From assembly GCA_964016885.1 (NCBI GenBank), contig OZ024754.1, positions 31,062,001 to 31,126,000 on the forward strand: a stretch of DNA of 64,000 bases, in the 5' to 3' direction. The notes below the pieces were generated by a model, which was not told the DNA's origin, searched no databases, and was given only the letters and a program-made list of their open reading frames with translations. The stretch comes from Eledone cirrhosa (lineage: Eukaryota). Made by a program: the position numbers and the translations under genes. Within the stretch, counting starts at the first letter, position 1, and the number at the start of each line of letters is the position of its first letter. Positions 12,828 to 62,987 of the stretch are shown one piece after another.

Positions 12828-12896
12828 CACCAGTTGCTTTCACTCCAATTTATTATAAATTTAATTTATAATAAATTGGAGTGAAAGCAACTGGTG
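12828..12896. repeat. Fold-back palindrome (34-bp arms) next to (TA)n
   Basis: CACCAGTTGCTTTCACTCCAATTTATTATAAATT-T-reverse complement. Confidence 0.93.
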
Positions 12897-12995
12897 CGTG
12901 TGTTTCTTATTGGCAACATGACCCTCCCAAAGCATAACAATATATATATATAAAGAATCTTGCTAAACAAATTCAGAAACGAAATATATATATAT

Positions 12996-13051
<56 letters not shown>

Positions 13052-13055
<4 letters not shown>

Positions 13056-13341
13056 TATTATCAAGAAAAAGAAAAATCAGTGATGCATCTGGACTTAGTT
13101 TATTTTGTGTTACAAATGTTTCGCCGGCATGTAGCTCGAGTCATGGTCCTTGTATGGATCTGGCTGATTCTACATCTGCGGGTTCTTTCAGACATGGCTG
13201 TTATGTCCAGAGCAAATTTTATCACTGATAAAATTTGCTCCAAGCTACATGAGTCGAGCTACATGCCGGCGAAACATTTGTAACACGAAATAAACTAAGT
13301 CCAGATGCATCACTGATTTTTCGTTTTCTTGATAATATCTA
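13052..13341. repeat. Inverted repeat (~93-bp arms, ~100-bp spacer) in (TA)n with hammerhead-like 3' half
   Basis: 13052-13145 is the reverse complement of 13248-13341. The right arm has ATGA-GTCG..CGGC-GAAAC-ATTT-GTA. Confidence 0.88.
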
Positions 13342-13415
13342 CACTCTACTCTGATGAATATCGAGTGCTAATTTTGGCATACCGCCTACGGAAGCAACAT
13401 AGCTACCACTATACA

Positions 13416-13448
<33 letters not shown>

Positions 13449-13454
<6 letters not shown>

Positions 13455-13860
13455 GTTTGGAGTTAGAAGGCCAGAACAATGCAGATATGGATATAGAATA
13501 TAAATACAAATGCAAAAGATATTGCTGACAATTAGTCTTTTACCTTAAATTTATTTGACTATCCTTAATTTTCGAGACAATATCTCTTCTTCGGAGGGTA
13601 GTAAAGGGGTTAATCCAGTGTTCTAATTAGCTTGCCAAGTCATTCTGACAGGAAAAGTTTTTTTTCTGTCAGCATGACTTGGCAAGCTAATTAGAACACT
13701 GGATTAACCCCTTTACTACCCTCCGAAGAAGAGATATTGTCTCGAAAATTAAGGATAGTCAAATAAATTTAAGGTAAAAGACTAATTGTCAGCAATATCT
13801 TTTGCATTTGTATTTATATTCTATATCCATATCTGCATTGTTCTAACTCCAAATGTTTAT
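13449..13860. repeat. Fold-back palindrome (~200-bp arms)
   Basis: 13449-13651 is the reverse complement of 13666-13860, with a few substitutions and an 8-nt indel. Confidence 0.95.
13715..13759 (+). ncRNA. Minimal type I hammerhead-like motif (U4->C variant)
   Basis: ACUACCCU-CCGAAGA-A-GAGA(uauug)UCUC-GAAA-AU-UA|AGGAUAGU; stem I pairs 7/8. Confidence 0.55.
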
Positions 13861-13942
13861 ACCTAACTACGCAATGCTTCAAGTAAACTACAATTTCCTC
13901 CTTATATATTGGAAAATGTGTGAAATCCTTGGTACAATTAGG

Positions 13943-14071
13943 TATATTAAAAAAGGGAAAAGAATGACTTCACTTGTAGTTCTAAACAATTTGATTTAAT
14001 TTTATAATTTTATAATATTATAAAATTAAATCAAATTGTTTAGAACTACAAGTGAAGTCATTCTTTTCCTT

Positions 14072-14082
<11 letters not shown>
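13943..14082. repeat. Fold-back palindrome (~65-bp arms)
   Basis: GGAAAAGAATGACTTCACTTGTAGTTCTAAACAATTTG versus its reverse complement, ending in (TA)n. Confidence 0.92.
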
Positions 14083-14144
<62 letters not shown>

Positions 14145-14452
14145 GATAATAATATAAAATACAAGGACGATTTGTTAAGCCTTCATTACGTTTATTGATT
14201 GATGATGCGCGTTTCGTTATTGAATAGCTCAAGGTTTGATTTGTATTGATCTGGGCCAATATGGATTTTATATATATATATAATAAAAAAGTATATATAA
14301 AACCGTAGAGCAAATATATATTATTATTAATACGGATTAAAGTTTGAACCTAAATATCGAGTGCTCACCTGGGTGAACCTACAGTAACTTCACATTACAC
14401 TACCTGATATATATATATATATATATATATAGTTATATATATATACACACAT

Positions 14453-14790
14453 ATCATCATCATTTCATTTTACGTCCGCTTTTCCCTGCTTGCAAGGGTG
14501 GGACGGGAACTGATTCTGGCTTTATTTCTACAGCTGGATGCCCTTCCTAACACCAACCTCATTTACAGTGAGTGCTGGGTGCTTTTTTGCCGTGGCACCT
14601 CCACGACCACTTTGCAGTGGAATAATATGGACCCCAGTCCCTATGATCTCATTTCTACAGCTGAGTAAACTGGAGCAATGTGAAATAAAGTGTCTTGCTC
14701 AAGGAAACAACACATCACCCGGTCTGAGAATTGAACTCACAACCTTTCGATTGCAAGGCCAATGCTCTAACCACTAAGCCATGTGCCTCC
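14453..14790 (-). mobile_element. SINE family S1
   Basis: Reverse-complement match to 7482-7816. Confidence 0.9.
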
Positions 14791-15027
14791 TATATATATA
14801 TATAAAACAAAATTTGTTTTCGCTCGTAACATGGTAGATACCTAAGTGTATTCGTGAATGAATAATAATTATAATATTATCCTAATATTAGTATTATTAT
14901 ATATATATATATATAGCAATAATAATTACGAAGACTAAAATCCAAAGTGGGCTCGATAAGGATTGTATATATATATATATATATATAATAAAAAAAGTAT
15001 ATATAAAACCGTAGAGCAAATATTTAT

Positions 15028-15220
15028 TGGTGAATTGGCAGTATCGGTAGATGGTCGGACGCCATGCTTTGACGCATAGAGTTACGGCCCTTGCCATTCT
15101 GAGTTCAAATCCCGCCGAGGTTAACTTTGCCTTTCATCCTTACGGGGTCGATAAAATAAAGTACCAGTAATGTACTGGGTAATTGCTGGCCTTGTGCCAA
15201 TAGTAGAAACAATTATTATT
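15028..15220 (+). mobile_element. tRNA-derived SINE family S2 (Nin/Deu-like core)
   Basis: TGGCAGTATCGG...GAGTTCAAATCCCGCCGAGG, core GCCTTTCATCCTTACGGGGTCGATAAAATAAAGTACCAG, (ATT)n tail. About 10 copies in the window. Confidence 0.88.
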
Positions 15221-15224
15221 AATT

Positions 15225-15520
15225 TGATATCTCAGTCATTGATGTTATTTAACCAGAAAATTTGCCCCAAGGAACATCAAACCATTACCTGAAGCCTCAG
15301 GTATTCAGGATGTATCGGAGGGTCCTTGCTGTTCCCAGTTGGCACACCTTTTGGAGTGTTCCTAAAAAGGGGGCTGCGCTAATGTTCTTTAACCAACCTT
15401 GGAAATACTTCCAGATAGTACCTAGAAATCCTATGACAATGAGGATGGCCTTGAACTCATGACAGTCCCAAATCTGTTTCAGTTCCCACTTTAGACCCTG
15501 GTACCAGTTAATTTTCTCCT
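15225..15520 (-). mobile_element. 3' fragment of R4/Dong-like retrotransposon
   Basis: Translates to EKINWYQGLKWELKQIW...LQKVCQLGTARTLRYIL; homologous to 21205-21500; flanked by (TAA)n. Confidence 0.8.
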
Positions 15521-15994
15521 TATAATTATTATTATTCTTATTGTTGTTATATATGATTTTATCCATTGATTTTGATAATCACCTTATTTAAGTACATTTT
15601 TTCCTTTCTTTTCTCCATATATATTTACAGCATTCCATTCGACCATATTAAAAGCCATTAATAATAATAACACACATGAATTTACTGGAGAATATTTGCG
15701 GGGACTTTAATATTGATAAGATGACCAATGAACGGCAACACCACATCTGACTCAACTCATTAAGGGAGAGAACATTATCAGTTGTAAAAGCTTTACCCAT
15801 CACCCCAGTACCAACATCACACAACTTGTCTAACTCATTAAACATGGTAAGTTATAACAGCTAAATAATAACTCCCTTCTAATAATTTCTGTTTAAGAGA
15901 AAAAAACAACAAAAAAACTGTTATATTAGTCATCTTATATAAACTTATAACTGGGTGTCTTCGGTAACTACACATACACATTCATGCATACATA

Positions 15995-16620
15995 TTCACA
16001 CACTCACATAAAGATACACACACACACACATATATACACACACTCGCACAAATACATACATAAAAATATATCCTCCCTCACGCATACGCACACACAAATA
16101 TATATATATACATGCACACACTAACTCATGCATATATTCACACACTCGCATAAATACATACATAAAAATATATCCTCCCTCACACATACGCACACACAAA
16201 TATATATATATATATATATATACATGCACACACTAACTTATGCATATATTCACACACTCGCATAAATACATACATAAAAATATATCCTCCCTCACACATA
16301 CGCACACACAAATATATATATATATATATATACATGCACACACTAACTTATGCATATATTCACACACTCGCATAAATACATACATAAAAATATATCCTCC
16401 CTCACACATACGCACACACAAATATATATATATATATATATATATACATGCACACACTAACTCATGCATATATTCACACACTCGCATAAATACATACATA
16501 AAAATATATCCTCTCTCACACATACGCACACACAAATATATATATATATATATATAGATGCACACACTAACTCCATGTATATATTCACACATTCGCATAA
16601 ATACATACATAAAAAAATAC
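15995..16620. repeat. ~120-bp tandem units containing variable (TA)n tracts
   Basis: CATGCACACACTAACTCATGCATATATTCACACACTCGCATAAATAC... recurs about 5 times. Confidence 0.85.
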
Positions 16621-17135
16621 CCTCTCGCTCGCACACGCACAAATATATATATCCATCTACATATATGTGCACATACATATACATATATCCATGTATAAAT
16701 AATACAAATATATATATATTGGTTGACACACATGTCATTTTAAATATTAATGAATGCATGATTGTAGGATCCTAGAATCACCAAAACCCAATGACTGGAA
16801 AAAGTGTGTATACATACATACATATGTGTGTGTGTGCATGCATATGCATTTTTTCTCAATTCTTTCCTCCTTTTTTCCTCTTCTCACTCTATCTTTCTAT
16901 TTCATCTTTTATTTCTCATTCTATCATCCGATGAAGGACTAGTGTCAAAAACGTTGAGACACTTTTCACATTATTTCAAGCGTTCAATTAATATATTTCT
17001 ACATTGCATTGTGTCGTTTACTTTATTATTTCTGTTTACTTTTTACATACATATTTATCTCAATACCCACTCAGCATCTCCCTATGCATTGAGTACTCCC
17101 ATGATTATTTGTCTCTCTGGGTTCAGCACCAGATA

Positions 17136-17169: not shown

Positions 17170-17262
17170 GACCAGCGGGTTCAATCAGGAGTAAACACAG
17201 TTAGTAAGGTACTCAATATATATATATATGTATATATATATATGTATGTATGTATATATATG

Positions 17263-17474
17263 TATGTAAAAGGTAAACAGAAATAACAGCACAATCGGTA
17301 CAGTATATGGAAGGTATATATTAGATTAACGCTTGATATAGCAGGAAGAGGGTCTTAACGTTTCAGATGCTAGTCCTTCATCAGAAGAAATAATGAGAAA
17401 TAAAATAGATCAATGGGACGGGCGGGATAGAATTGGAAAAAATGTCTTTAGATAAAAATAATAGGTCCATTCAT
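17263..17474 (-). mobile_element. (TA)n-embedded ~210-bp repeat with hammerhead core (family HA)
   Basis: The minus strand reads UCUU-CUGAUGA-A-GGA(cuagca)UCU-GAAACGUUAAGA. Near copy at 31125-31348; fragments at 16925-16965 and 51590-51682. Confidence 0.65.
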
Positions 17475-17509: not shown

Positions 17510-17620
17510 AAGTTTAATATAGAAATGGCTTCTACAGGACTAGAACTGTTTCATTCAAAATATAACTTCTTTTGAATGAAACAGTTCTAGTCCTGTAGAA
17601 GCCATTTCTATATTAAACTT
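17510..17620. repeat. Fold-back palindrome (~51-bp arms) in (TA)n
   Basis: AAGTTTAATATAGAAATGGCTTCTACAGGACTAGAACTGTTTCATTCAAAA versus its reverse complement. Confidence 0.93.
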
Positions 17621-17632: not shown

Positions 17633-17809
17633 TATAATTGAATATAAAAGAAAAACGAACACAGATATATACATATATGTGTTCAAATCGTAAGGGACCA
17701 GATTCGCTAAGGTGAAAAGAATACTAACACCTTAACGAATCTAGTCCCTTACCATTTGAACACATATATGTATATATCTGTGTTCGTTTTTCTTTTATAT
17801 TCAATTATA
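17633..17809. repeat. Fold-back palindrome (~82-bp arms)
   Basis: 17633-17714 versus 17728-17809, with about 4 mismatches. Confidence 0.92.
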
Positions 17810-17893
17810 ATATACGGCTAGGAAAAATCTCTTTCCTGGAGCTATTTTATTGTAAGAGACTATTTTGAGTTTCTAACTCAATATATACCTTTG

Positions 17894-25005: not shown

Positions 25006-25144
25006 CATACACTCTTGCATGCATACACACACATATGTATGTGTATATATATGTGTGTGTGTATGTAGTGTTGTGGTATAAAAGTGGGAGGTTATATCTC
25101 TAGTAAGTAGAGCACTCTGTCAATAGAACGAGTTCGATATAGAC

Positions 25145-25271
25145 TTAGTTCCACAACAAATTAGCAAACTATAGTCGAGGACATGCATTTCATCCAATGG
25201 AATTTCGAATTGAAAACCCATTGGGTGAAACACACATCCTCAAGTATGGTTTGCTAATTTGTTGTGGAACT

Positions 25272-25273
<2 letters not shown>
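25145..25273. repeat. Diverged fold-back (~60-bp arms)
   Basis: TTAGTTCCACAACAAATTAGCAAAC versus GTTTGCTAATTTGTTGTGGAACTAA; GTGAAAC motif near the apex. Confidence 0.85.
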
Positions 25274-25336
<63 letters not shown>

Positions 25337-25426
25337 TAGAAGGGATATTTAATTTATTGGAAATACAACAAATATAAATGTTTATAACTGATTCAGAGCA
25401 CTCGACAGATTTCTGGAGTAAATATT

Positions 25427-25726
25427 CAATGATATTAAATAAATGGAAACTATATTTATTAAACCATATTTATTCTATTATATATATTTCAAGGGTACCA
25501 AAAAACTTTGGTACGCTTTCATTAGATACAATACAAAGAGTGTTTTATAAATTTTGACAAATTCAACTGATAAGGTATGATTTCCTTGGCTATGTCAAAA
25601 TTTATAAAACACTCTTTGTATTATATCTGATGAAAGTGTACCAAAGTTTTTTTGGTACCCTTGAAATATATATAATAGAATAAATATGGTTTTATAAATA
25701 TAGTTTCCATTTATTTAATATCATTG
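25427..25726. repeat. Fold-back element (~133-bp arms, 33-bp spacer), family HB
   Basis: 25427-25559 versus 25593-25726; homologous to 42755-43140. Confidence 0.94.
25619..25682 (+). ncRNA. Type I hammerhead ribozyme (candidate)
   Basis: UAUUAUAU-CUGAUGA-AAG.GUACCAAAG(uuu)UUUGGUAC.CUU-GAAA-UAUAUA-UA|AUAGAAUA. Confidence 0.68.
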
Positions 25727-25752
25727 TATATACATATATATATATATATATA

Positions 25753-26209: not shown

Positions 26210-26384
26210 CTGGTACTTTATTTTATCGACCCCATAAGGATGAAAGGCAAAGTTATATATATAATAAAATTATATATATATTATATATATATTATATATA
26301 TATAATGTAGGTAGTACGGTGAAATATTGGGGCTGGTACCACATCAAGAATTCTTCACAGAGTGTATATAATAGAAAAAAATTA

Positions 26385-26613
26385 GGAAGTTTTGTTTACA
26401 TATGAAAAATATTTGTGTATCGACTTGTTACGTACGTTTCACAGAGGATCGGCTGAAGGTGTCCCATAGGAGTTATGGACCTGACTCCAGTATCGATCTG
26501 CTCCTCAGACTAGTGATGCAACAAAGGATATATCTTTTGCCGCCAATCCTCTGTGAAACACGCGGAACAGGTCGATACACAATAAATATTTTTCACATGT
26601 AAATGAAACTTCC
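26385..26613. repeat. Diverged inverted repeat (~70-bp arms)
   Basis: 26385-26455 versus 26540-26613. The left arm on the minus strand reads GAAAC-GUAC-GUA. Confidence 0.82.
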
Positions 26614-26626
26614 TTGTTTTTTCTAT

Positions 26627-31122: not shown

Positions 31123-31124
31123 GT

Positions 31125-31348
31125 ATGTAAAAGGTAACCAGAAATAACAACACAATCGGTACAGTATATGGAAGGTATATATTAGGTTAACACTTGAAAT
31201 AGCAGGAAGAGGGTCTTAACGTTTCGGACGCTAGTCCTTCATCAGATGAAAGAATGAGAAATAAGATAGATTGAGAAATAAGATAGAGGGGAGAGGCTGG
31301 ATGGAATTGGAAAAAATGTCTTTAGATAAAAATGACAGGTCCATTCAT
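31125..31348 (-). mobile_element. Family HA hammerhead-core repeat
   Basis: The minus strand reads CUGAUGA-A-GGA(cuagcg)UCC-GAAACGUUA at 31245-31217; flanked by (TA)n. Confidence 0.68.
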
Positions 31349-34435: not shown

Positions 34436-34776
34436 TCATCATCATCATCATCATTTTTACGTCCACTTTTCCCTGCTTGCAAGGGTGGGACGGGAACTGA
34501 TTCTGGCTTGATTTCTACAGCTGGATGCCCTTCCTAACACCAACCTCATTTACAGTGAGTGCTGGGTGCTTTTTTGCCGTGGCACCTCCACGACCACTTT
34601 GCAGTGGAATGATAGGGACCCCAGTCCCTATCATCTCATTTCTACAGCTGAGTAAACTGGAGCAATGTGGAATAAAGTGTCTTGCTCAAGGAAACAACAC
34701 ATCACCCGGTCTGAGAATTGAACTCACATCTTTCGATTGCAAGGCCAATGCTCTAACCACTAAGCCATGTGCCTCC
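34432..34776 (-). mobile_element. SINE family S1
   Basis: Matches 7482-7816. Confidence 0.9.
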
Positions 34777-34860
<84 letters not shown>

Positions 34861-34882
34861 CACACACACACTCAAAACTAGA

Positions 34883-36046
34883 ATGGCTAACCAGCAAAAA
34901 TCCAAACAGAACTGGTCTGATAATGAAATCGACATTCTAATAAACACATGGCATTGCCTTTCCCAAACAGAAGATATAGATGCTTCATCTCTGAACGACA
35001 TTGCTAAACGTACAGTTCAATTTTTGAAAACTCGATCTGAACAACAGATTCAAAATAAATTAAAGCAAATCGAAATTGCTTTTAAATTAATCAATAAACA
35101 TTTGGATAAACTACGGTGTGTTTTCTCTTCGAATGCTGTCCAGCAGCAGCAACAACAACAACAGCAGCTACAACAGCAACAACAACAACAACAGCAGCTA
35201 CAACAGCAACAACAACAACATCAACAACAGCTACAACAACAACATCAACAACAGCAACAACAACAGTGTGAACCACTCCTTGATTCATCAACAATGGCCG
35301 ATCTACTAAATGAAACTATTGACCCCCCAGTAGCCTCTGTCTCACAGCATGAAACGCCACATCCTTTCTCTGGCCCAGCAGTCCAATCATCACCACTGCC
35401 AACATCTCTGCCTACTACTACTACTACTACTACAACATTTTTGTCTACTGCTATGTCAAGGAATTTACCTTCTAATACCAGAACAAGAACTCTCCCTCCC
35501 ACAGTCCACAAAGGTCGTCAAATCCTACCCAAACCATCATCTACACCTCTCACAACACCCACACCCATATACCCACCCACTCGAAACCCCATCATTTGCC
35601 GCTACTCTCTACGCTATAGAATATGTACGGATAGTGGCTGCAAATTCACCCATTTACCTAGGACAAAACGATCTATCCCCACAAACAGCCACCACCATAA
35701 TACATACTCTAATTTAACACCAACACAACCACCAATAACTCAAACAAGGAATCCACAAATCTGCCGTTTTTCCCTGCGAGACAGATTGTGTTTAGACCGG
35801 GATTGTCCCTTTACCCATCTCCCGGGGACCCGTCGGATAAATGAAAATAAAAGCAAAAACAAAAACCATAACCTACATAAAAATAACCACTACCACAGTC
35901 ACCAACAGTCTTCTAAACAGGAAACTTCTTCCTCTTTTTTAGCCATAATGAATCTGGCAAAAGAACTGGAAAAAAACATTCGAGCTATCACCCAGCACCA
36001 CCCTCCACTATCACCCCACTGCACAAACTCCCATTGCTGCCATTAA
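34883..36046 (+). CDS. LINE ORF1 protein (387 aa): Myb/SANT-like N-terminus, polyQ, two CCCH zinc fingers
   Basis: ATG at 34883. NWSDNEIDILINTW...RSEQQIQNKLKQI; CRYSLRYRICTDSGCKFTH and CRFSLRDRLCLDRDCPFTH (C-x8-C-x4-C-x3-H). Confidence 0.8.
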   Translation: MANQQKSKQNWSDNEIDILINTWHCLSQTEDIDASSLNDIAKRTVQFLKTRSEQQIQNKLKQIEIAFKLINKHLDKLRCVFSSNAVQQQQQQQQQLQQQQQQQQQLQQQQQQHQQQLQQQHQQQQQQQCEPLLDSSTMADLLNETIDPPVASVSQHETPHPFSGPAVQSSPLPTSLPTTTTTTTTFLSTAMSRNLPSNTRTRTLPPTVHKGRQILPKPSSTPLTTPTPIYPPTRNPIICRYSLRYRICTDSGCKFTHLPRTKRSIPTNSHHHNTYSNLTPTQPPITQTRNPQICRFSLRDRLCLDRDCPFTHLPGTRRINENKSKNKNHNLHKNNHYHSHQQSSKQETSSSFLAIMNLAKELEKNIRAITQHHPPLSPHCTNSHCCH

Positions 36047-39000
36047 CAAACAAACAAATTAACAACACACCAAAACAATTAAAACCATCCACTCTCGCCT
36101 CTACATTTTTGCTTAACGCCCAAGGCATCAGCCCTTCCACCAATACTCAAAAATGGAAGATCAAATTCCTGGAGGACTGGATTGATGTCCATCCAAACCA
36201 CATCCCTTTCTTCGTCCTCACTGAAACCCATCTCAGTAACCTCCACTTGGAAGCCGAGGTGAAAGTGAAAAATTTCAAAGCCATCCGTGCTGATCGCGCT
36301 GGCAGAAGAAAGGGCGGAACTGCCATTTATGTCCATAATTCTTTCTCAACAGAGGCTATGAACATATTCACTAATGGATACTGTGAGGCAGTCACTGTAT
36401 TCAGTCAAACCAACAACCTATTAGTAGTTGGGCTCTATAGGCCACCCCAAACGCCTGTACCATGCTTCAAGGAATGCCTCAACAGCATAAAGTGTTTCAT
36501 CCAAGAGTGTCACCCTGACAACATCTTAATGATGGGGGACTTCAACCTCCCCGGAGTTGACTGGTCCACAAACACCCTGCCACCAGGTTCTTCTGCCTCA
36601 ACCTCTGACAGGGAAGCTGTGGAATCGCTTCTTGACTTCATGGATGATTTCTTCCTATCCCAACTAGTGCTCGAACCAACGAGGTGCCACAAAAACGTCC
36701 TAGACTTAATTTTCAGCAATCACACTGACAATATCCACAATATTGCAGTGGAGAAAACTCTACTCTCTGATCATGACATGGTTCTCTGTGATCTGAGATT
36801 CCACCGTCCAATATACAAACCCAATGTCATTTCTCCTGTCCATCCGTTTGACGCTATGGATTTCCACAATGCAAACTGGGAAGCGATCAGTCATGATCTT
36901 GCACATGTCGACTGGTCCTTCACGCACACTCATACACCCACTAACATCAAAAAGTCCTGGCAGACATTTGTGGACACTGTTACAAACATATGTGCTAAAC
37001 ACACCCCATTAAGAACTATAAACAAATCTAAGAGCAGAATCCCTAGAAATAGAAAAACGCTCATCAGAAAAATTAAGAGAACGAACAAAAAAATCAACAA
37101 TCTGAAATACTGTCAGCAGCAACACATCAACTTGACTGCCATTTCATCACTAGAGATTAAAAAACATAACCTCCAAAACAACATAATGTCCCTCATCAAC
37201 AATCAGAGAAGAGCTGAAGAGGCCTGGGCCATTGAGAAGATCAAACTTAATCCCAAAGTGTTCTTTTCATTTGCAAAAAAACACAAAATCACTGGCTCTA
37301 CTGTTGGCCCTCTAATTGATGAAAATGGCACTCTTCAAGACAATGCTAAAACCATGGGTGAGATACTGCAGAAACAATACTGCTCTGTTTTCAGCAATCC
37401 TGATATGGCCGATCTGGGCTGTATCGGCGATGTTACTCCCCATTACACCTTATCGGACATAACGTTTGGCGCCCCTGATGTCTTGGCGGCAATAAAGGAA
37501 ATCAAGCATAATTCAGCAGTAGGTCCCGATAGGTTCCCTGCTTGTGTCTTGAAGGCGTGTCAACACCAACTTGCTTCTCCTCTTGCCAATCTGTGGCGGA
37601 ACTCACTGGATGCTGGATATGTGCCAGAAAACCTTCTATCCCAGTCTGTTGTCCCAGTTTTCAAAAAGGGAAACAAATCCCTTGCCGTGAATTACCGTCC
37701 AATCTCACTCACCTCTCATATCATTAAGGTATTTGAGCGAGTGGTGAGATCGCGAATGACCCACTTCCTTGAGAGTAACAATATGCTGAACTCCAACCAG
37801 CATGGATTCCGTAATGGAAGGGATTGCCTGACGCAACTACTGCATCACTTTGATGACATTTTGAGAGCCTTGGGAGAGGGTTCCAACACTGATGTTATCT
37901 ACCTTGATTTCAGCAAGGCCTTTGACAGGGTTGATCATAACATTCTACTGAGAAAGCTGTCCAATATTGGTGTCACTGGAAAGCTGCTGCAGTGGATCAA
38001 GAGCTTCCTGTCAAACAGAACCCAACATGTTGTAGTTGAGGGAGTCAAATCAAGCCCAGCCAAAGTCAGTAGTGGAGTCCCACAAGGCACTGTGTTGGGC
38101 CCACTTCTCTTCATCATCTATATTAATGACATCACTGACATCATCAAACACAGCAACATTAAAATTTTCGCTGATGATTCCAAGCTCCAAAAGGTCATCA
38201 ATGGCGTGGATGACCGGATAAGCCTTCAGTCAGACCTACTGGCTGTTACCCAATGGGCAGAAAAGAACAACATGTTACTGAACGAAGACAAATTCGAACT
38301 GATCCACTTTGGAAAAGAGGATGCTCTGAAACTCCCGTACTCCCTTCCCTCCGGGGAAACTCTCGTGGCATCTAACAACATCAGAGACTTGGGAGTAACC
38401 GTGGACAGCAACATAAGCTGGACCACGCATATAAGCAGCAAAGTTGACATGGCCCGCAGAATGTGTTCCTGGATCCTCAGAACCTTCCAGTCGAGAGATT
38501 CCCGCACCATTATCCTTCTCTTCTCTACTTTCGCCCGACCACACCTTGAATACTGTTGTCCACTGTGGTCTCCCCACACGAAACAAAGTATCATGAAACT
38601 TGAAGCTCCTCAAAGGGCAATCACGAAAAAGATAGATGGCATGTCAGACCTTGATTACTGGGGTCGATTGGAAAACCTGAAACTTTACTCACTCCAACGT
38701 CGCCGTGAGCGTTATATTATCTGCATGATGTGGAAAATGTTCCATCATCACTGCCCAAATGATGTTGGCATCGCCTTCAAGATACACCCAAGGCTTGGGC
38801 CCCGTGCTATCCGTCCCATTCAAAAATCTAAATCGCAACTCATAACAACAATACGGCACAATTATTTCACCTCAATCGGCCCTGCTCTCTTCAACATCAC
38901 ACCAGGACACGTCAAAACAGAAACTGACCACACAAAATTCAAGAAGTCTTTGGACAAATTCCTCCAAGTAATCCCGGACAAACCACCCACACCCGGATAT

Positions 39001-39054
39001 GTCTCCGCAAACAGTAATTCTCTTCTCGAATGGGCCATGGTGCCCAAATCCTGA
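36034..39054 (+). CDS. LINE ORF2: apurinic endonuclease + reverse transcriptase
   Basis: LNAQG, LTETHL, GDFN, SDH (APE); NYRPISL, QHGFR, YLDFSKAFD, GVPQGTVLGP, FADD (RT). Uninterrupted 1006 aa; the frame is open from 35917. Confidence 0.96.
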   Translation: MLPLTNKQINNTPKQLKPSTLASTFLLNAQGISPSTNTQKWKIKFLEDWIDVHPNHIPFFVLTETHLSNLHLEAEVKVKNFKAIRADRAGRRKGGTAIYVHNSFSTEAMNIFTNGYCEAVTVFSQTNNLLVVGLYRPPQTPVPCFKECLNSIKCFIQECHPDNILMMGDFNLPGVDWSTNTLPPGSSASTSDREAVESLLDFMDDFFLSQLVLEPTRCHKNVLDLIFSNHTDNIHNIAVEKTLLSDHDMVLCDLRFHRPIYKPNVISPVHPFDAMDFHNANWEAISHDLAHVDWSFTHTHTPTNIKKSWQTFVDTVTNICAKHTPLRTINKSKSRIPRNRKTLIRKIKRTNKKINNLKYCQQQHINLTAISSLEIKKHNLQNNIMSLINNQRRAEEAWAIEKIKLNPKVFFSFAKKHKITGSTVGPLIDENGTLQDNAKTMGEILQKQYCSVFSNPDMADLGCIGDVTPHYTLSDITFGAPDVLAAIKEIKHNSAVGPDRFPACVLKACQHQLASPLANLWRNSLDAGYVPENLLSQSVVPVFKKGNKSLAVNYRPISLTSHIIKVFERVVRSRMTHFLESNNMLNSNQHGFRNGRDCLTQLLHHFDDILRALGEGSNTDVIYLDFSKAFDRVDHNILLRKLSNIGVTGKLLQWIKSFLSNRTQHVVVEGVKSSPAKVSSGVPQGTVLGPLLFIIYINDITDIIKHSNIKIFADDSKLQKVINGVDDRISLQSDLLAVTQWAEKNNMLLNEDKFELIHFGKEDALKLPYSLPSGETLVASNNIRDLGVTVDSNISWTTHISSKVDMARRMCSWILRTFQSRDSRTIILLFSTFARPHLEYCCPLWSPHTKQSIMKLEAPQRAITKKIDGMSDLDYWGRLENLKLYSLQRRRERYIICMMWKMFHHHCPNDVGIAFKIHPRLGPRAIRPIQKSKSQLITTIRHNYFTSIGPALFNITPGHVKTETDHTKFKKSLDKFLQVIPDKPPTPGYVSANSNSLLEWAMVPKS

Positions 39055-40346: not shown

Positions 40347-40742
40347 CTTTAATAATTGTTTCTACGTTAGGCACAAGGCCAGCAATTACCCAGTGCATTA
40401 CTGGTACTTTTATTTTATCGACCCCGTAAGGATGAAAGGCAAAGTTAACCTCGGCGGGATTTGAACTCAGATCGTAAAGGGACGTAACTATGCTGGAAAG
40501 CATGGCATCCGACCCTCTACCGATACTGCCAATCCACCGCCCACAGCTTTAATAATTGTTTCTACTTTAGGCACAAGGCCAGCAATTACCCAGTACATTA
40601 CTGGTACTTTATTTTATCGACCCCGTAAGGATGAAAGGCAAAGTTAACCTCGGCGGGATTTGAACTCAGAATGGCAAGGGCCGTAACTCTATGCGTCAAA
40701 GCATGGCGTCCAACCCTCTACCGATACTGCCAATTCACCGCC
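40347..40742 (-). mobile_element. Two tandem S2 SINEs (two subfamilies)
   Basis: Copies at 40347-40541 and 40550-40742; direct repeat ACAGCTTTAATAAT at 40343 and 40544. Confidence 0.88.
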
Positions 40743-40781
40743 CTTACTGCCAAGCTTTAATAATCATATCTGATTGTACTC

Positions 40782-42677: not shown

Positions 42678-42754
42678 TATATATGTAAATATACACATTA
42701 TATATATATTTATATATAGATATAAAAGCACTCGACAAATATTTGGAGTATATT

Positions 42755-43140
42755 TACAATATTAAATAAATGGAAAACTATATTTATAAAACCATATTTA
42801 TTTCATTATATATATTTCGGGGATATCATATTAACAATATGCTATGCCTTCATCAGACAAAATACAATATAAACAGTTTTATAGATAAATATATTCGACA
42901 TACCGTAATAAACATCAACTTCATTTGAAGAGGTTTACGCTAGCAGTCCTGCTAGCGTAAACCTCTTCAAATGAAGTTGATGTTTATTACGGTATGTCGA
43001 ATATATTTATCTATAAAACTGTTTATATTGTAATTTGTCTGATGAAGGCATAGCATATTGTTAATATGATATCCCCGAAATATATATAATGAAATAAATA
43101 TGGTTTTATAAATATAGTTTTCCATTTATTTAATATTGTA
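42755..43140. repeat. Fold-back element with 192-bp arms and 2-nt loop, family HB
   Basis: 42755-42946 is the reverse complement of 42949-43140, with about one mismatch; embedded in (TA)n. Confidence 0.96.
42799..42864 (-). ncRNA. Type I hammerhead ribozyme (candidate; mirror copy on + at 43031-43096)
   Basis: UAUUUUGU-CUGAUGA-A-GG.AUA.CAUAUU(guu)AAUAUG.UAU.CCC-GAAA-UAUAUA-UA|AUGAAAUA; 8-bp stem I including G-U pairs. Confidence 0.72.
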
Positions 43141-43466: not shown

Positions 43467-43469
<3 letters not shown>

Positions 43470-43803
43470 ATCTCATTTTACGTCCTCTTTTCCCTGCTTG
43501 CAAGGGTGGGACGGGAACTGATTCTGGCTTGATTTCTTCAGCTGGATGCCCTTCCTAACACCAACCTCATTTACAGTGAGTGCTGGGTGCTTTTTTGCCG
43601 TGGCACCTACACGACCACTTTGCGGTGGAATGAAATGATAGGGACCCCAGTCCCTATCATCTCATTTCTACAGCTGAGTAAACTGGAGCAATGTGAAATA
43701 AAGTGTCTTGCTCAAGGAAACAACACATCACTCGGTCTGAGAATTGAACTCACAACCTTTCGATTGCAAGGCCAATGCTCTAACCACTAAGCCATGTGCC
43801 TCC
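43467..43803 (-). mobile_element. SINE family S1
   Basis: Matches 7482-7816. Confidence 0.88.
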
Positions 43804-47527: not shown

Positions 47528-47728
47528 GTACATTCACGCATACATTCACAACAACATACACACACACACATACGCACACATACATACACACACACACACG
47601 TACATACACACATACACAACAACACACACACACATACACACACATACATTACGCACAACTACATACACACATATGCATACGCACACATGCATGCTCACAT
47701 AAACATACACAAACAGCTTATTTAATTA

Positions 47729-47920
47729 AGGGCGGTGGATTGGCAGTATCGGTAGAGGGTTGGACGCCATGCTTTCTAGCATAGTTACGTCCCTTTACAG
47801 TCTGAGTTCAAATCCCGCCGAGGTTAACTTTGCCTTTCATCCTTACGGGATCGATAAAATAAAGTACCAGTAATGTACTGGGTATTTGCTGGCCTTGTGC
47901 CTAAAGTAGAAACGTTTATT
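47729..47920 (+). mobile_element. S2 SINE
   Basis: GGGCGGTGGATTGGCAGTATCGG...; TTATTTAATTAAG on both sides is a possible target-site duplication. Confidence 0.88.
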
Positions 47921-50653: not shown

Positions 50654-50720
50654 GTGTGTATGTGTGTGTGTGAGTGTGTGTGTGTGTGTAAGTATATTTT
50701 GAAACAGTGAGTGAGTTTTG

Positions 50721-50936
50721 AAATTAGAAATTGAAGCCTTCACCATATTTTTTTACTAAAGAAATGTTAGCCTGATAGTAGGGTTTAGAACCCTCTAAGA
50801 AATGGAAATAGATGAGTATTGACTCCCATGTACGTCAATACTCGTCTATTTCCATTTCTTAGAGGGTTCTAAACCCCACTATCAGGCTAAAATTTCTTTA
50901 GTCAAAAAATATGGCAAAAGCTTCTATTTCTAATTT
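50721..50936. repeat. Fold-back palindrome (~103-bp arms)
   Basis: 50721-50823 versus 50834-50936, with several mismatches. Confidence 0.92.
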
Positions 50937-51525: not shown

Positions 51526-51802
51526 GAAATATATATATATACACACACACACAGACACACTCATATATACATATATATATATATGTGTGTATGTAAAAAG
51601 TAAGCAAAAATAACCTAACAAATAGCAGAGTATATGGAAGGATTATATTAGTTTAACGAAAAGGGTCTTAACATTTCGGATGATTTGTATATGTATATAG
51701 TAAAAATAAATGTGAAGACTAAACTCCAAAGAGGGTTCGATAAGGATTATATATATATATATTAAAAAATATATATATTTATATAAAAACCTTGTAGAGC
51801 AA

Positions 51803-51938
51803 ATATTTATTATAAGAACAAATTAAAGTTTAAGCAAAGAATCACTGCTTTCACCCTTAACAGGATCTTCAGAAGATCCTGTTAAGGGTGAAAGCAGTGA
51901 TTCTTTGCTTAAACTTTAATTTGTTCTTATAATAAATA

Positions 51939-51939
<1 letters not shown>
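51803..51939. repeat. Perfect fold-back (68-bp arms) centred on CTGAAG
   Basis: ...CACCCTTAACAGGATCTTC-A-GAAGATCCTGTTAAGGGTG... Confidence 0.94.
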
Positions 51940-51966: not shown

Positions 51967-51973
<7 letters not shown>

Positions 51974-52140
51974 CAAAATATTAATAAATGAAGACGTTCA
52001 CATAATCAAAATATATGTTTTATTATATATATTTCGGAGGTACTTTGCTGAAAAAACAGCACAGTACCTCCAAAATATATATAATAAAACATATATTTTG
52101 ATTATGTGAACGTCTTCAGTTATTAATATTTTGAATAATA
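51967..52140. repeat. Fold-back (~84-bp arms) with GAAATATATATA motif
   Basis: 51967-52050 versus 52057-52140. Confidence 0.92.
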
Positions 52141-52440
52141 TTAATAACTCCAGAAAACTTCCTTGTAGAGTGCTTTTAATCTATTGTAAAACTGTATTCA
52201 TTGAGTAATCAATGAACCATATTGGTCTTTGGTATATATACATATATATATATACATACATACATACATATATATATACATATATCATCATCACGTAAAA
52301 TGATGATGATATATGTATATATGTATGTATGTATATGTGAGTGTGTGGTATTAGTGGTATATAAAAAACCTGTTAGTTTATATACTCCATTAGTACCATT
52401 ATCACCAGCTGTAGTCAGCACAATGTTTATATTATGTAAG

Positions 52441-52739
52441 AGAGAACAAAGTTTCAATGTAAAATATTTATATTCCCCATGAAACAAGACACATGCTTTG
52501 TTGGTGATTAGCTCGAGGTCTTAATCAATACAATTGACCTGACACTGGTATCTATCTGTTTATCAGATGCGTAGATTAGGTTCAAAACACTTCCAGAGAG
52601 AAAAATGTTTAGAACCTGATAAACAGATAGATACCAGTGTCAGGTTTATCATCGATTAAGACCTTAAGCTAATCATCAACAAAACATGTGGCACGTTTGA
52701 TGGGGAATATAAATATTTTACATTGAAATGTCATTCTCT
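52441..52739. repeat. Diverged inverted repeat (~125-bp arms)
   Basis: ACCTGACACTGGTATCTATCTGTTTATCAG versus CTGATAAACAGATAGATACCAGTGTCAGGT, with flanking matches. Confidence 0.88.
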
Positions 52740-53092
52740 TTAACCAGCCTGATTTGTGGTCTCTCCAATCTTGGCACTGCAGACTATACATTCATACATC
52801 TCTTAATTATTACTGAAATTCTATAAGAATCCAGCTTCTATAATTCGCAGCAGAGGCAAGGGACTGTGTGGTCTTGATAAACACTAACAAGTGAGAAAGA
52901 GACTGTCGATCACTCTCCCTTGTTTTTGTCGAATATAAGTAAGTGACGCAGTGAATGGTCTTCTAAATATTTTTAATTAAACATACAGTATATTGCCAAA
53001 TGTACTATACATACATTGATGTATACATCGCTATTTCAGAGCACCAATAATAATAACTAATTTTTGCTCGACCGGCAATCACTTTCAATCAA

Positions 53093-53198
53093 TTACAAGC
53101 TGTTAAAACAATTCTTTATATAGCTCTTACACATGTTTCACCCAGAAGGGTGAAACACGTGTAAGAGCTATATAAAGAATTGTTTTAATGGCTTGTAA
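53093..53198. repeat. Fold-back (~51-bp arms) with hammerhead 3' half
   Basis: TTTCACCC-AGAA-GGGTGAAAC-ACGT-GTA. Confidence 0.92.
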
Positions 53199-54548: not shown

Positions 54549-54894
54549 TATATATAAATCAGGAAAGAAGGTCTACATGGCCCGCCACACAAAAAAGTTT
54601 TTAATCACAGTTTTTTTTCACCTAAGTGGACTGCATTTAACTATTATTTGGTAATCCGTATATACTATATATATATATATATACTATATATATATATATA
54701 TTTATACTATATATATATATATATTTATACTATATATATATATATATTTATACTATATATATATATATATTTATACTATATATATATATATTTGAATATA
54801 TATAACAAAGAGGGTGTGGAAAGATACCAGGTGGACCATAACACACCAGAGTACTCAATACTTAGAGTAGCAAAGTGAGTAATATGAGAAGAGG

Positions 54895-54993
54895 CAGGAC
54901 TCCGACAGCTGAGCTTTGGCCATTTCGACAGCTAGATCTGAATGGTTTGGATCTAGCTGTCGAAACGGCCGGAGCTCAACCGTTGGGGTCCTG
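54895..54993. repeat. Fold-back (~45-bp arms); the family is also at 43895-44035
   Basis: TTTCGACAGCTAGATC...GATCTAGCTGTCGAAA. Flank 54805-54900 is the reverse complement of 43935-44035. Confidence 0.85.
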
Positions 54994-55038
54994 ACCCTTT
55001 TCATATAAATATATATATATATGTATATATATGTATAA

Positions 55039-58942: not shown

Positions 58943-59235
58943 GGTCTTAGTCTTAGGTTCTTCTGCACCTTTCGGTACATCGAGCAGTTAGTAGTTGCCA
59001 ATGATCACGATCAGCAGTGGCTTTTTTGCGTCCATGCCAAGTGATGTTGACTGCCATCAAGTCTTTTTGAAACGTTCATTGCTGCCAGGTGAAGTCCAGT
59101 TCATCGCCGTTTTCAAGTGTTATTCATTTGACAGGCACAGAATATTGCCGGTCAGGTGGTACTGGCACTCCATAACCACCCTCTGCAGCGTTCATGACTT
59201 GGCTCTCCACAGGATTTCCTCGTTTCACACTAGAT
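58943..59235 (-). mobile_element. RTE-like 3' fragment
   Basis: FKKDL..VNITW..ADRDHWQLL..RC motif and a (CTAAGA) tail. Confidence 0.6.
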
Positions 59236-59244
59236 AGACTCCAA

Positions 59245-59850
59245 GAAAATGTTCTGCATTTGGTAAAACCTGTATTAAATGTGGAAAATATAATGATTTT
59301 AAGGCAGTAGGTAAATCTAGAAAGAGGTATGTTTTATTATGTCACCAGGGCCTTTACAAAAATAATATCAGGCTATGTTATTTTGAGGCAAAGAACCATT
59401 ATATATTGAACAAACAGTGGTAGTGAGGTAGAGCAAATTGTGAAGGTTTATAGGAAAGGTTACTTCCAAAAGGAATAACTGAGCCCTTTTTTTAGTGATT
59501 CTAAGAAAGGCAGGATGAAAGGTGACAGAATATGTGGAAAGAATAACGGAAGAAAAAGAAGCCTTTAACTACTAAATCTACAAGAAAGTTTTCAACCTTT
59601 ATCATTCTTTATCTAATATAAAACTCTGATTTAATTGATATAGGCAGGCTTCATGAAAATGTTCTGCATTAGATAAAACCTGTATTAAATGTGGAAAATA
59701 TAATGGCAGTATGTAAATCTAGAAAAAGGTTTAGGAAATTAAAAAGGGAAGCTTCTGAAAGTATTTTTGAGACACTGCAATACAGAAACCTAATAATATT
59801 TACTTTAAGATGCAAATTGACACTGGCACTCAGGTAACTATATAACACCT
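59245..59850 (+). mobile_element. Decayed Gypsy-like gag knuckle (duplicated) and protease remnant
   Basis: KCSAFGKTCIKCGKYNDFKAV at ~59248, again at ~59657, and FKMQIDTGTQVTI at ~59805. Confidence 0.55.
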
Positions 59851-60869
59851 GATAATTTCTCGATGGATTTGAATAAACCCAACATTTAGAAAGAAAATGT
59901 CATCTCAAACTAAAACAATTTGATGTAGAATTCAGCGAAATTTGGGGGAAAATTTGATGCATTAATGGAAATAAAGAATGGATGCTGTAAAAGACATTGT
60001 TTTTGAATTGTCAAAAACAACAAAACAGAAGAAATCATAACTTGTTTGGTGTGGATGTGATGACTGTTGAGAGTTGAACAGTAATTCATGAAATTGAAGC
60101 TCAAAGACAATTGAGGGAATTAAAAGGATTTAAGGCTAACATTCATCATCATCATCACCACCACCATCATCATCACCATCCTCATTATCCTCATCATCAT
60201 CACTATCATTATCACCATCATCATCATCACCACCACCATCATCATCATCATCATCATCACCACCATCATCATCACCACCATCACCACCATCACCACCATC
60301 ATCATCATCATCATCACCACCATCATCATCACCATCCTCATTATCCTCATCATCATCACTATCATTATCACCACCACCACTACCACCACCACCACCATCA
60401 TCATCCCCATCATCATCATCCTGTGCTTTTTGTCATGGCACCTTTAGAAGCACCTTACAGAGTAGACTGGGTGCTTTTTGTCGTGGCACCAGCACTACCA
60501 TCTTACAGGATGGACTGGATACTTTTGTAGTTGTACCAGCACTATCACTTTACAAGGTGCACTGGGCATGTTTTATTATGTCACCAGCATCTTTACAAAA
60601 GTAATAACAGGCCATGTTATTTTGAAGCAAAGAACCATTATGAGTAGATATTGGACACCCAGTGGTAGTGTGGTCGAGGAAATTGTGAAGGTTTTTTGGA
60701 GAGGTTTCTTCCAGAAGAAATTAATGAACCCTTCTTTTAGTGATCGTGTGAAAGGCTAGATGAGAAGGGACAGAGAATACGTGGAAACAAAAATAGAGAA
60801 AAAAGAGCCCTTAACTACTATAGATATGAATCAACAAGATCCCAGACTTCACTTACCAAGTGGGGTGGA

Positions 60870-61068
60870 ACTCATCAAATTGGACCATGGAAACAATGTT
60901 TCCATTGGTCTTTCCATTGCTGATACTATCTACTGGTTGCAACTCCTGACAGAAAAAGCAACATGTAAATAAGTGTCTTGCTCAAGGACATAGTGCATCA
61001 CCCAGTCCAGGAATCAAACTCACAACCTTATGATTGTGAATCCAATTCTCTAAGCACTAAGCCACTAA
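60870..61068 (-). mobile_element. SINE family S3 (older copy)
   Basis: Homologous to 31423-31643. Confidence 0.75.
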
Positions 61069-62020
61069 GCCTTAACTTTCGATTGACTCATAGGTGTGTT
61101 ATGTTAAAGATGTAGCATGTTTTGAACATTTAAAACATGTCAGAACCCATCACTCTTCATGTCTGAAAACAGCTGATTTATTCCAGGGAATGATAGAGAG
61201 AAAGTGAGAAGAAGGTATAGAGGAAGAATCAACCCTAGTATTGGACTGGTATTTTATTTATTAACCTCAAAAGGATGAAAGGTAAAATTGACCGTGGCAG
61301 AATTTGAACTTAGTGTGCAGAAAGCTGAAACAAATACCAAATCATTTAATGTGATGCTTGCAAAATTCTACCAAATTTGTCACTAAGGAAGACTATAAAG
61401 GATGTGTAAATGAAAATTTTTTTCAGATTCTTATCCAACTCCAAATATTGAATCAATAATTCTTTCTATTTCTGGCATGAATTATTCTGCTAAATTCTAT
61501 TATATCATCATATAGAAATGCTCTGAAGCAAAAGAAGTTACCATGATAAATACACTGATATGTATTTTAAAATAGCTCTATCTTCTATAGAGAATTAGAA
61601 CAGTGAGTACTGTTTCAGGGAAGAATTCAGCAAGTCATAAGGAAATATCATTGATAATGTCATTGTTTAAGTAACTAATTTATGTAATACACGTGGATGG
61701 TGATTGCTAGGAGAAGAAATGACCAGAAATCTTAGCGGAAGGAAGCTACAGTAGAGGAAGACCAAGGAAGACCTGGCAGAGATTGTGAGAAGTGATTTCA
61801 ACTCAATGAAACTCACAGTGGAGATGACAAAGGATCACGTGTGGAGGGATGCTGTGCTGAACAGAACATGATCATTCTATGCAAGCATGGAGAAATGGTC
61901 ATGAAAACAATATTGATGATGATGATGATGATGCGATGATGATGATGATAAACAGATCAACATTTTTTTTTATTGTGTCCAACACAGTATTTTAAATAAT
62001 TCAAATGTAGACTCAATAGA

Positions 62021-62762
62021 ACATCATCATCATTTCATTTTACGTCCGCTTTTCCCTGCTTGCAAGGGTGGGACGGGAACTGATTTTGGCTTGATGCCCT
62101 TCCTAACACCAACCTCATTTACAGTGAGTGCTGGGTGCTTTTTTGCCGTGGCACCTGCACGACCACTTTGCAGTGGAATGATATGGACCCCAGTCCCTAT
62201 CATCTCGTTTCTACAGCTGAGTAAACTGGAGCAATGTGAAATAAAGTGTCTTGCTCAAGGAAACAACACATCACCCGGTCTGAGAATTGAACTCACAACC
62301 TTTCGATTGCAAGGCCAATGCTCTAACCACTAAGCCATGTGCCTCCATATATTAGATAATTTAATGTAGATAAACCTACATATATCATCATCATCATCAT
62401 CATTTCCTTTTACGTCCGCTTTTCCCTGCTTGCAAGGGTGGGACGGGAATTGATTCTGGCTTGATTTCTACAGCTGGATGCCCTACCTAACACCAACCTC
62501 ATTTTACAGTGAGTGCTGGGTGCTTTTTTCTGTGGCGCCTACATGTCCATTTTACAGTGTGGGCTGGGTGCTTTTTTGCCGTGGCACCTCCACGACCACT
62601 TTGCAGTGGAATGATAGGGACCCCAGTCCCTATCATCTCATTTCTACAGCTGAGTAAACTGGAGCAATGTGAAATAAAGTGTCTTGCTCAAGGAAACAAC
62701 ACATCACCCGGTCTGAGAATTGAACTCACAACCTTTCGATTGCAAGGCCAATGCTCTAACCA
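62021..62762 (-). mobile_element. Two tandem S1 SINEs (62021-62346; 62385-62762, 5' clipped)
   Basis: Both match 7482-7816. Confidence 0.9.
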
Positions 62763-62763
62763 G

Positions 62764-62987
62764 TAAAGATGCTGATGTTACATAAATCATTTATTCATTA
62801 TAATTATTTCAACGGTTCTCCCATGCAATCAAGATGTAATTCGATTCTGCGATATGCCGCCGGCAGGAAAAACACATTCTTTTCATCTGAGGACAGTAAC
62901 AAATACATGAATTACATCTTGATTGCATGGGAGAACCGTTGAAATAATTATAATGAATAAACGATTTATGTAACATCAGCATCTTTA
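62764..62987. repeat. Inverted repeat (~78-bp arms, ~67-bp spacer)
   Basis: 62764-62841 versus 62909-62987; contains GAAAT-AATT-ATA. Confidence 0.92.

What the first reader, a model, noticed from the sequence alone, without database searches (positions are those of the whole stretch)
12828..62987. Swarm of ~17 fold-back elements in (TA)n tracts, many carrying hammerhead-ribozyme cores
Seen: inverted repeats with 35-200 bp arms start at 12828, 13052, 13449, 13943, 17510, 17633, 25145, 25427, 26385, 42755, 50721, 51803, 51967, 52441, 53093, 54895 and 62764. They belong to mostly unrelated sequence families, are usually bounded by (TA)n, and range from near-perfect to diverged. At least 9 contain CUGAnGA...GAAA or GAAA(C/U)-tetraloop-NUH motifs. 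Established: Penelope-like elements (PLEs) carry minimal type I hammerheads in their terminal repeats, often have inverted 5' ends, and some clades insert in microsatellites. Inference: this is a diverse non-autonomous PLE/retrozyme-like system that leaves ribozyme-containing hairpins.
Basis: partly seen in the sequence, partly recalled or inferred. Interest (0 to 1): 0.85.

Follow-up and report, generated by a model that had tools for sequence, protein, structure and literature searches.

The report
Head-to-head Penelope retrotransposon stubs
The 17 hairpins are real, and most are pairs of short retrotransposon ends (Penelope-like elements, usually with hammerhead-ribozyme motifs) joined head to head in TA repeats, likely made when the element's enzyme copies its RNA twice, once onto each side of a cut, a known layout that here is predicted to recur hundreds of thousands of times across the genome.

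Summary
All 17 fold-backs exist (arms 34-193 nt, 79-99% alike). They are head-to-head pairs of 5'-truncated 3' ends (pLTRs) of Penelope-like elements (PLEs). The 42755 arm is the end of a Hydra-type PLE with a 738-aa ORF, whose longer copies are palindromes of up to 8 kb. The 13449 and 12828 arms also lead back to PLE reading frames. 50721 belongs to a 260-nt non-coding, tRNA-containing unit. Inverted truncated copies, one-sided tails, (TA)n targets and hammerheads are all published PLE traits, including a Hydra family in octopus. The window is about twice the genome average (130 fold-backs/Mb), not a unique swarm. New here: one arm carries the tail and the other does not in 29 of 29 Hydra-type insertions of a first set. 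Also, 132 of 418 arms stop at one initiator-like base, often followed by an extra C, and either arm can be the one that stops there. This favours two RNA-templated cDNAs, primed at the two start sites and running off the RNA's 5' end, over simple fold-back. No RNA data were available, so the start site is inferred.

The parts
12828..12940 (.). Fold-back 12828-12896 plus tail 12897-12940; end of a PLE with a C-terminal GIY-YIG-like frame and Cx4CxxC linker; family HHR lies about 100 nt upstream of the part kept
13054..13419 (.). Fold-back 13054-13339 plus tail 13340-13419; family C, HHR-like with CUGAAAGA core (by eye); left arm stops at the family's initiator-like base; parent ORF not found
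13452..13901 (.). Fold-back 13452-13858 plus 43-nt tail; family B, PLE with RVT_1 and GIY-YIG; complete minimal HHR (U4C core) in both arms, cores at 13723(+) and 13594(-)
13903..14077 (.). Fold-back 13943-14077 with tail on the left; no HHR seen; parent unknown
17510..17620 (.). Fold-back with HHR 3' half; complete HHR in relatives (L253); TA on both sides, no tail (exception)
17633..17893 (.). Fold-back 17633-17810 plus tail; no HHR seen; parent unknown
25095..25277 (.). Fold-back 25141-25277, tail on the left; U3-A8-type HHR core (by eye)
25335..25731 (.). Fold-back 25422-25731, tail on the left; relative of the Hydra-type 42755 end (82% over 106 nt); complete HHR, core at 25627(+)
26305..26622 (.). 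Fold-back 26376-26622, tail on the left; family D, HHR with long stem II on the minus strand; TATA-like box upstream in longer copies; parent ORF not found
42715..43140 (.). Fold-back 42755-43140 with partial tail on the left; Hydra-type PLE (family A); complete HHR in both arms (cores 43039 +, 42856 -); centre is the run-off point plus one extra C
50688..50936 (.). Fold-back 50721-50936, tail on the left; family E, about 260-nt non-coding tandem unit with a tRNA-like segment; no HHR found
51720..51939 (.). Fold-back 51803-51939, tail on the left; HHR with U4A core in relatives; parent ORF not found
51967..52232 (.). Fold-back 51967-52137 plus tail; HHR 3' half like family A, complete core in relatives (L070, L181, L200)
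52441..52740 (.). Old fold-back (79%); decayed HHR, family related to D; spanned by a short-read contig
53093..53198 (.). Fold-back centred in HHR stem II; 3' half only; tail undetermined
54804..55006 (.). Fold-back 54882-55006, tail on the left; HHR 3' half with long stem III; complete U3-A8 HHR in a relative (L241)
62764..62987 (.). Fold-back, family G; HHR in relatives; both ends abut other repeats, tail undetermined

Best explanation
Each hairpin is one insertion of a Penelope-like retrotransposon end in (TA)n, made of two 5'-truncated copies joined head to head, likely because the element's RT-endonuclease cuts both strands and primes two cDNAs on the element's RNA, one from each side of the cut. 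One cDNA would start at the proximal start site (no tail) and the other at the distal site (tail). When priming happens in the pLTR at the front of the transcript, the enzyme would run off the RNA's 5' end after about 190-280 nt, sometimes adding a C opposite the cap; earlier stalls give shorter arms. The two cDNA 3' ends would then anneal by 0-6 nt of microhomology and be filled in. Shown: PLE origin for three families, palindromic layout, tail asymmetry, single-base stop, same-source arms. Inferred: start site and cap, twin priming, dimer, ribozyme activity.
For: Parent: long copies of the 42755 end are 0.4-8 kb palindromes with a 738-aa ORF whose model best matches telomerase RTs and which has the Hydra motifs of PMC8557442 section 11. 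Family B has RVT_1 (E 5e-14) and GIY-YIG above cut-off 316-358 nt upstream of the arm. Tail rule: 29 of 29 two-armed family A insertions are tail/no-tail; 18 of 19 classified in a second set, 5 shared with the first; 46 of 54 in families B-G (p 7e-8); 13 of 17 window hairpins have a recurring tail on one side. Stop: 132 arms end exactly at one base in a TCACT context, 286 continue 8 nt or more; PMC3846280 calls TCACT in a pLTR initiator-like. Next base among 100 listed: C 42, A 48, T 10. Both arm types stop there (11 untailed, 16 tailed, 3 unclear of 30); in 7 the untailed arm reaches the stop while the tailed partner is shorter, so neither can be a plain copy of the other. Arms of one insertion share 79 variants, 26 private to the pair, in 12 insertions. 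In vitro a PLE protein cuts and extends both strands and starts at two sites that bound the tail (PMC11167929).
Against: No RNA evidence for the start site or cap. The C excess is modest (42 of 100 against about 29% expected from partner sequence, p 0.004) and many Cs can be read as partner sequence. Exceptions to the tail rule exist: L263 tail/tail, 4 tail/tail and 4 none/none (some misclassified), and 17510 in the window. Secondary deletions at palindrome centres occur (L030) and could blur which arm was longer. Arm lengths do not correlate in 14 long pairs (rho 0.15). In vitro the two start sites were used alike on both strands, which does not by itself predict strict pairing. No parent ORF was found for 12 of 17 hairpins.
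Confidence: 0.62

Rival explanations
1. Same PLE origin, but one cDNA (or an antisense RNA, as proposed in PMC3846280) folds back and self-primes the second arm; the tail is trimmed on one side by endonuclease resolution and later central deletions create the asymmetries.
For: Arms come from one source sequence; many junctions are near-symmetric or sit on palindromes such as GCTAGC or in HHR stem II; stuttered repeats at junctions (L261, L278) show DNA-templated re-priming; published model.
Against: Seven insertions in which the untailed arm holds terminal bases that the tailed arm lacks, and two (L276/277, L281/282) in which both arms reach the stop base; among 14 long asymmetric pairs the untailed arm is the longer in 10.
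Confidence: 0.25
2. The sharp stop is an RT pause or template break at the palindrome and pyrimidine tract, not the RNA's 5' end; otherwise as the best explanation.
For: The stop lies 3 nt from a self-complementary hexamer and just downstream of a long pyrimidine tract.
Against: Single-base precision, initiator-like context, a like stop in family C (28 arms, 10 followed by C, 6 of them not explained by the partner by eye) and a TATA-like box about 30 nt upstream of the family D pile-up.
Confidence: 0.1
3. The hairpins are MITEs of TA-targeting DNA transposons, or amplification/assembly artefacts.
For: Terminal inverted repeats flanked by TA look like MITEs; a few hairpins are near-perfect; three families show no HHR.
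Against: Arms continue into RT genes in longer copies; centres differ between copies; one-sided tails; arm divergence up to 21%; one hairpin spanned by a short-read contig.
Confidence: 0.03

Closest known systems
Hydra clade of Penelope-like elements (PMC8557442; Hydra-1_Obim, Penelope-13_HM)
   Same: Single ORF of about 740 aa, RWR/DKT/CxCx5C/CxxC/CxH motifs, HHR near the 3' end, (TA)n targets, inverted 5'-truncated copy, tail at one end.
   Different: Unit about 4 kb with a 1.6-kb 3' UTR (published ones mostly under 3 kb); tail about 85-90 nt (published 30-40); palindromic insertion is the rule here; single-base stop not found in the papers read.
Poseidon PLE of Anolis in vitro (PMC11167929)
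   Same: AT-rich target, both strands cut and extended, two RT start sites bounding the tail.
   Different: That paper does not address inverted insertions or pairing of the two start sites; different clade.
Penelope elements of Adineta vaga (PMC3846280)
   Same: Inverted pLTRs of about 200 bp, optional tail on one of them, TATA and TCACT initiator-like motif in the pLTR, palindromes at junctions.
   Different: Few copies there; self-priming on an antisense template proposed, whereas the data here favour two sense-templated cDNAs.
Non-LTR retrozymes (PMC7229834; bioRxiv 10.64898/2026.07.22.740005)
   Same: Family E is a short (260 nt) non-coding unit in partial tandems with PLE-like ends.
   Different: No HHR found in family E; it carries a tRNA-like segment; copies are dispersed, often inverted pairs, not long arrays.

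Membership tests
Penelope-like elements (EN+) | Telomerase-like RT | tested here: met
   P0001 model: best hits TERT structures; family B RVT_1 E 5e-14. Pfam gave nothing for P0001.
Penelope-like elements (EN+) | GIY-YIG endonuclease in the same ORF | tested here: met
   Family B above Pfam cut-off. Family A only by invariant Y618/Y631/G633/E701/N713 and a weak profile match, E 0.0013. 12828 family by tblastn to the family B domain, E 2e-7, Pfam negative.
Penelope-like elements (EN+) | pLTRs from partial tandems, inverted 5'-truncated copy, optional tail | tested here: met
   L034 partial tandem plus inverted copy; tails.
Penelope-like elements (EN+) | Minimal type I hammerhead in the pLTR | tested here: met
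   Complete motif in families A, B and relatives of most others; none seen for 13943, 17633, 50721.
Penelope-like elements (EN+) | Self-cleavage of the hammerhead | not testable with these tools
   Monomer folding gives the HHR-like fold for 25422 and 13449 but not for 42755 or 26376.
Hydra clade (family A) | RWK-like, DKT, CxCx5C linker, CxxC and CxH, no CCHH, (TA)n insertion | tested here: met
   RWR, DKT, CNCRDRSKC, CDLC, CKH read in P0001 against section 11 of PMC8557442; flanks are (TA)n.
Hydra clade (family A) | Phylogenetic placement with reference Hydra proteins | not tested
   No reference proteins were held; no tree built.
Non-LTR retrozymes (family E) | Short non-coding tandem unit | tested here: met
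   260-262-nt period in partial tandems.
Non-LTR retrozymes (family E) | Type I hammerhead in each unit | tested here: not met
   No core with flanking stem I seen by eye; none flagged at 50721.
MITE of a DNA transposon | Fixed ends and fixed interior, symmetric termini | tested here: not met
   Variable centres and one-sided tails.

The most novel reading that the evidence does not exclude
PLE integration is an ordered double-priming reaction: a dimer engages one RNA at both tail-bounding sites and copies it twice, and priming in the front pLTR yields cap-terminated strong-stop cDNAs. That would explain the tail, the inversions and solo pLTRs in one step, and would have seeded about 400,000 hairpins and about as many hammerhead motifs in this genome, with tRNA-promoter passengers such as family E using the same machinery.
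Probability: 0.35. Interest if true: 0.75.

Novelty: new member of a known kind. Interest (0 to 1): 0.5.

Why it matters
How PLEs make their inverted ends and one-sided tails is an open question in the papers read. A young, abundant family with hundreds of readable junctions gives direct tests: a predicted start site, a tail-pairing rule and a way to separate twin priming from fold-back. The extrapolated load (280,000-510,000 fold-backs; 260,000-600,000 hammerhead motifs) is above the counts in the papers read (120,000 retrozyme copies in axolotl, about 9,000 minimal HHRs in Xenopus), though descriptors differ. If transcribed, such hairpins would be a large source of double-stranded RNA for editing and small-RNA pathways (inference), and they are likely to be mis-annotated as microRNAs or MITEs.

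Tried and rejected
Rfam scan: no hammerhead model among the hits shown. Pfam and PDB sequence searches with P0001 or its alignment: nothing. First narrow HHR regex found 1 hit and was replaced. The repeat finder was swamped by CA/TG repeats. No PLE protein match inside the window itself. Walking upstream in families C, D, G, 17510, 51803, 54882, 51967 reached no ORF. Arm-length correlation: none. Sequencing runs: no RNA holder listed; RAD reads and runs X4, X5 did not span a hairpin with its flanks. Dimer prediction for P0001 residues 2-480: no verdict. Earlier findings of the scan: none. Literature searches for a published twin-priming or strong-stop model of PLEs, for hairpins or hammerheads in octopus, and for a PLE-dependent tRNA SINE gave none; the library lacks most subscription papers.
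Full report
Observation. The window is AT-rich and full of microsatellites. It lies on contig C14 of a 3.0-Gb genome. The only named protein relatives are from Argonauta, so the host is likely an octopod; that is an inference. Eleven of 17 have (TA)4+ within 10 nt of an end, against 2.1 by random placement. A hammerhead 3'-half motif reads outward from the centre in 9 of 17 and inward in 2; 1000 shuffles give mean 2.3, max 8. A complete-hammerhead descriptor gives 7 hits in the window against 0.23 in shuffles, in 3 of the 17 hairpins plus two elements outside them. Rfam showed no hammerhead hit. A 511-nt contig of short-read run X1 spans the 52441 hairpin and both flanks with no difference; X1 may be the assembled sample.

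Parents. The 42755 arm has many 99%-identical copies, mostly as inverted pairs 0.2-6 kb apart. The long pairs are palindromes whose arms are 5'-truncated copies of one 4-kb unit with a 738-aa ORF. Pfam does not recognise it, but its AlphaFold model (pLDDT 90) best matches telomerase RTs, and it has the motifs that define the Hydra clade in PMC8557442 (section 11 read). That paper's supplement (part 2 of 59 read) lists a Hydra family from Octopus bimaculoides, (TA)n targets, canonical hammerheads and one family with an inverted 5'-truncated copy. The 13449 arm lies 316-358 nt downstream of a GIY-YIG frame preceded by RVT_1. The 12828 arm leads to a frame with a Cx4CxxC linker and a GIY-YIG-like end (Pfam negative). 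25422 and 51967 resemble the 42755 end but were not tied to an ORF of their own. The 50721 arm belongs to a 260-nt non-coding unit in partial tandems that includes a tRNA-like segment, called by ARAGORN in 1 of 16 loci, and has no evident hammerhead. For the other hairpins no ORF was reached in 1.4 Mb of loci. Relatives show hammerheads for all but 13943, 17633 and 50721, some by descriptor and some by eye, and for 53093 only the 3' half was seen.

Tail rule. PLE ends come with or without a short tail. In family A, 29 of 29 two-armed insertions have one tailed and one untailed arm, and 4 more are single-armed. In a second set picked by pattern, 18 of 19 classifiable insertions follow the rule and one is tail/tail; 5 overlap the first set. 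In families B-G the script counts 46 tail/none, 4 tail/tail and 4 none/none; the four none/none are family G, whose ends attract other repeats, one tail/tail is a threshold error, and two distinct loci were dropped as duplicates. In the window 13 of 17 have a recurring tail on one side, one has none, and three are undetermined. In the arbitrary sample 30 of 52 have TA against one end and within 120 nt of the other (control 3.7), and 4 of 52 have TA against both. A one-sided tail is already described (PMC8557442 passages; PMC3846280 passages and Discussion); its strictness was not stated in what I read.

Stop point. In family A, 132 arms end exactly at the A of a TCACT motif 193 nt from the untailed end, while 286 continue at least 8 nt (exact-match counts). 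PMC3846280 calls TCACT in a pLTR initiator-like. Of 100 listed, the next base is C in 42, A in 48, T in 10; A mostly reflects a partner arm or the TA target, and the C excess over partner composition is modest (p 0.004). Family C has a like stop (28 arms, 10 followed by C), and family D has a TATA-like box about 30 nt upstream of its pile-up. I read this as run-off at the capped 5' end of the transcript, after priming in the front pLTR. No RNA run was listed, so this is untested.

Mechanism. The two arms of an insertion share variants: 79 shared, 26 private to the pair, arm-to-arm difference 0-1.2% against medians of 0.9-2.2% to other arms, in 12 insertions. They come from one source sequence, which fits fold-back, twin priming and gene conversion alike. 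Fold-back from the tailed arm predicts that the untailed arm never reaches further 5', and fold-back from the untailed arm cannot make a tail. Yet 11 untailed and 16 tailed arms of 30 end at the stop, in 7 the untailed arm reaches it while its tailed partner is shorter, and in 2 both reach it. In vitro a PLE protein cuts and extends both strands, starts at two sites bounding the tail and is predicted to be a dimer (PMC11167929, parts 1-2 of 4 read). I therefore favour two RNA-templated cDNAs joined by 0-6 nt of microhomology or a few untemplated bases. Against this: central deletions occur (L030), junction stutters show DNA-templated re-priming (L261, L278), arm lengths do not correlate, and exceptions to the tail rule exist. 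In that paper hammerhead cleavage was not needed for insertion; many arms here hold only its 3' half, so the motif is probably a passenger in the hairpins.

Scale. Forty 10-kb stretches at round coordinates on large contigs hold 52 fold-backs (130/Mb, bootstrap 93-170) and 57 complete hammerhead motifs (143/Mb, 88-200; 8 shuffles gave 0-4). The 3'-half motif reads outward in 33 and inward in 11 of the 52. The window has twice the average (P about 0.007), through nesting in TA tracts. Extrapolated, that is about 400,000 of each. Comparisons: about 9,000 minimal motifs in Xenopus (PMC4209133 Results read), up to 120,000 retrozymes in axolotl (PMC7229834 passages), 235 Rfam hits in giant squid (PMC6962438 passages); my descriptor is looser. 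The retrozyme preprint (part 1 of 5 read) ties retrozymes to PLE pLTRs; its supplements are closed. PMC8490949 (passages) added nothing.

Verdict. Real, explained, and of a known kind: truncated, inverted PLE insertions from several families. The added value is the scale, the near-strict tail pairing, the single-base stop and the tRNA-containing passenger, which together make the unresolved PLE integration step testable. Interest 0.5.

Noticed in passing
window 35917-39054 (+), 34757-36046 (+): Uninterrupted 1045-aa APE endonuclease plus RT frame (non-LTR retrotransposon, Pfam) behind a 429-aa frame with Cys/His motifs; looks intact.
   Followed up: partly
window 16907-17054 (+), 17258-17405 (-), 31123-31264 (-): Three diverged (76%) PLE-like ends with minimal hammerheads; the first two face each other tail to tail across TA tracts and are separate insertions, not a fold-back.
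   Followed up: partly
window 54401 (-): Complete hammerhead motif outside any hairpin; no relative among the loci held.
   Followed up: partly
L126, L171-L194: Family E: 260-nt tandem unit with a tRNA-like segment (GGA anticodon); several fold-backs are centred a few bases upstream of it, as expected for a Pol III start. Possible PLE-dependent SINE; partner not found.
   Followed up: partly
L261, L278 (junctions): Two to four tandem repeats of the last 11-13 nt at the stop point, like telomerase-style stuttering on a self-complementary hexamer.
   Followed up: no
L122:2210-4441 (-): A second intact 744-aa Hydra-type ORF; several more Hydra-type fragments at 29-47% identity in 7 of 40 arbitrary stretches.
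   Followed up: no
L215, L221, L222, L253; window 13723; L072: Recurrent hammerhead core variants (U4A, U4C, U3-A8, two bases at position 7) kept across many copies; activity unknown.
   Followed up: no
window 13955-14070, 50779-50878, 12827-12898: Hairpins give sub-threshold matches to plant and animal microRNA models in Rfam, a likely source of false microRNA calls.
   Followed up: no
window 7476-7814, 14458-14790, 34455-34778, 43468-43803, 62034-62352; 15029-15221, 40350-40746, 47727-47920, 63003-63592: Two abundant interspersed repeat families (about 330 and 190 nt), probably SINEs; not classified.
   Followed up: no
   Followed up: no
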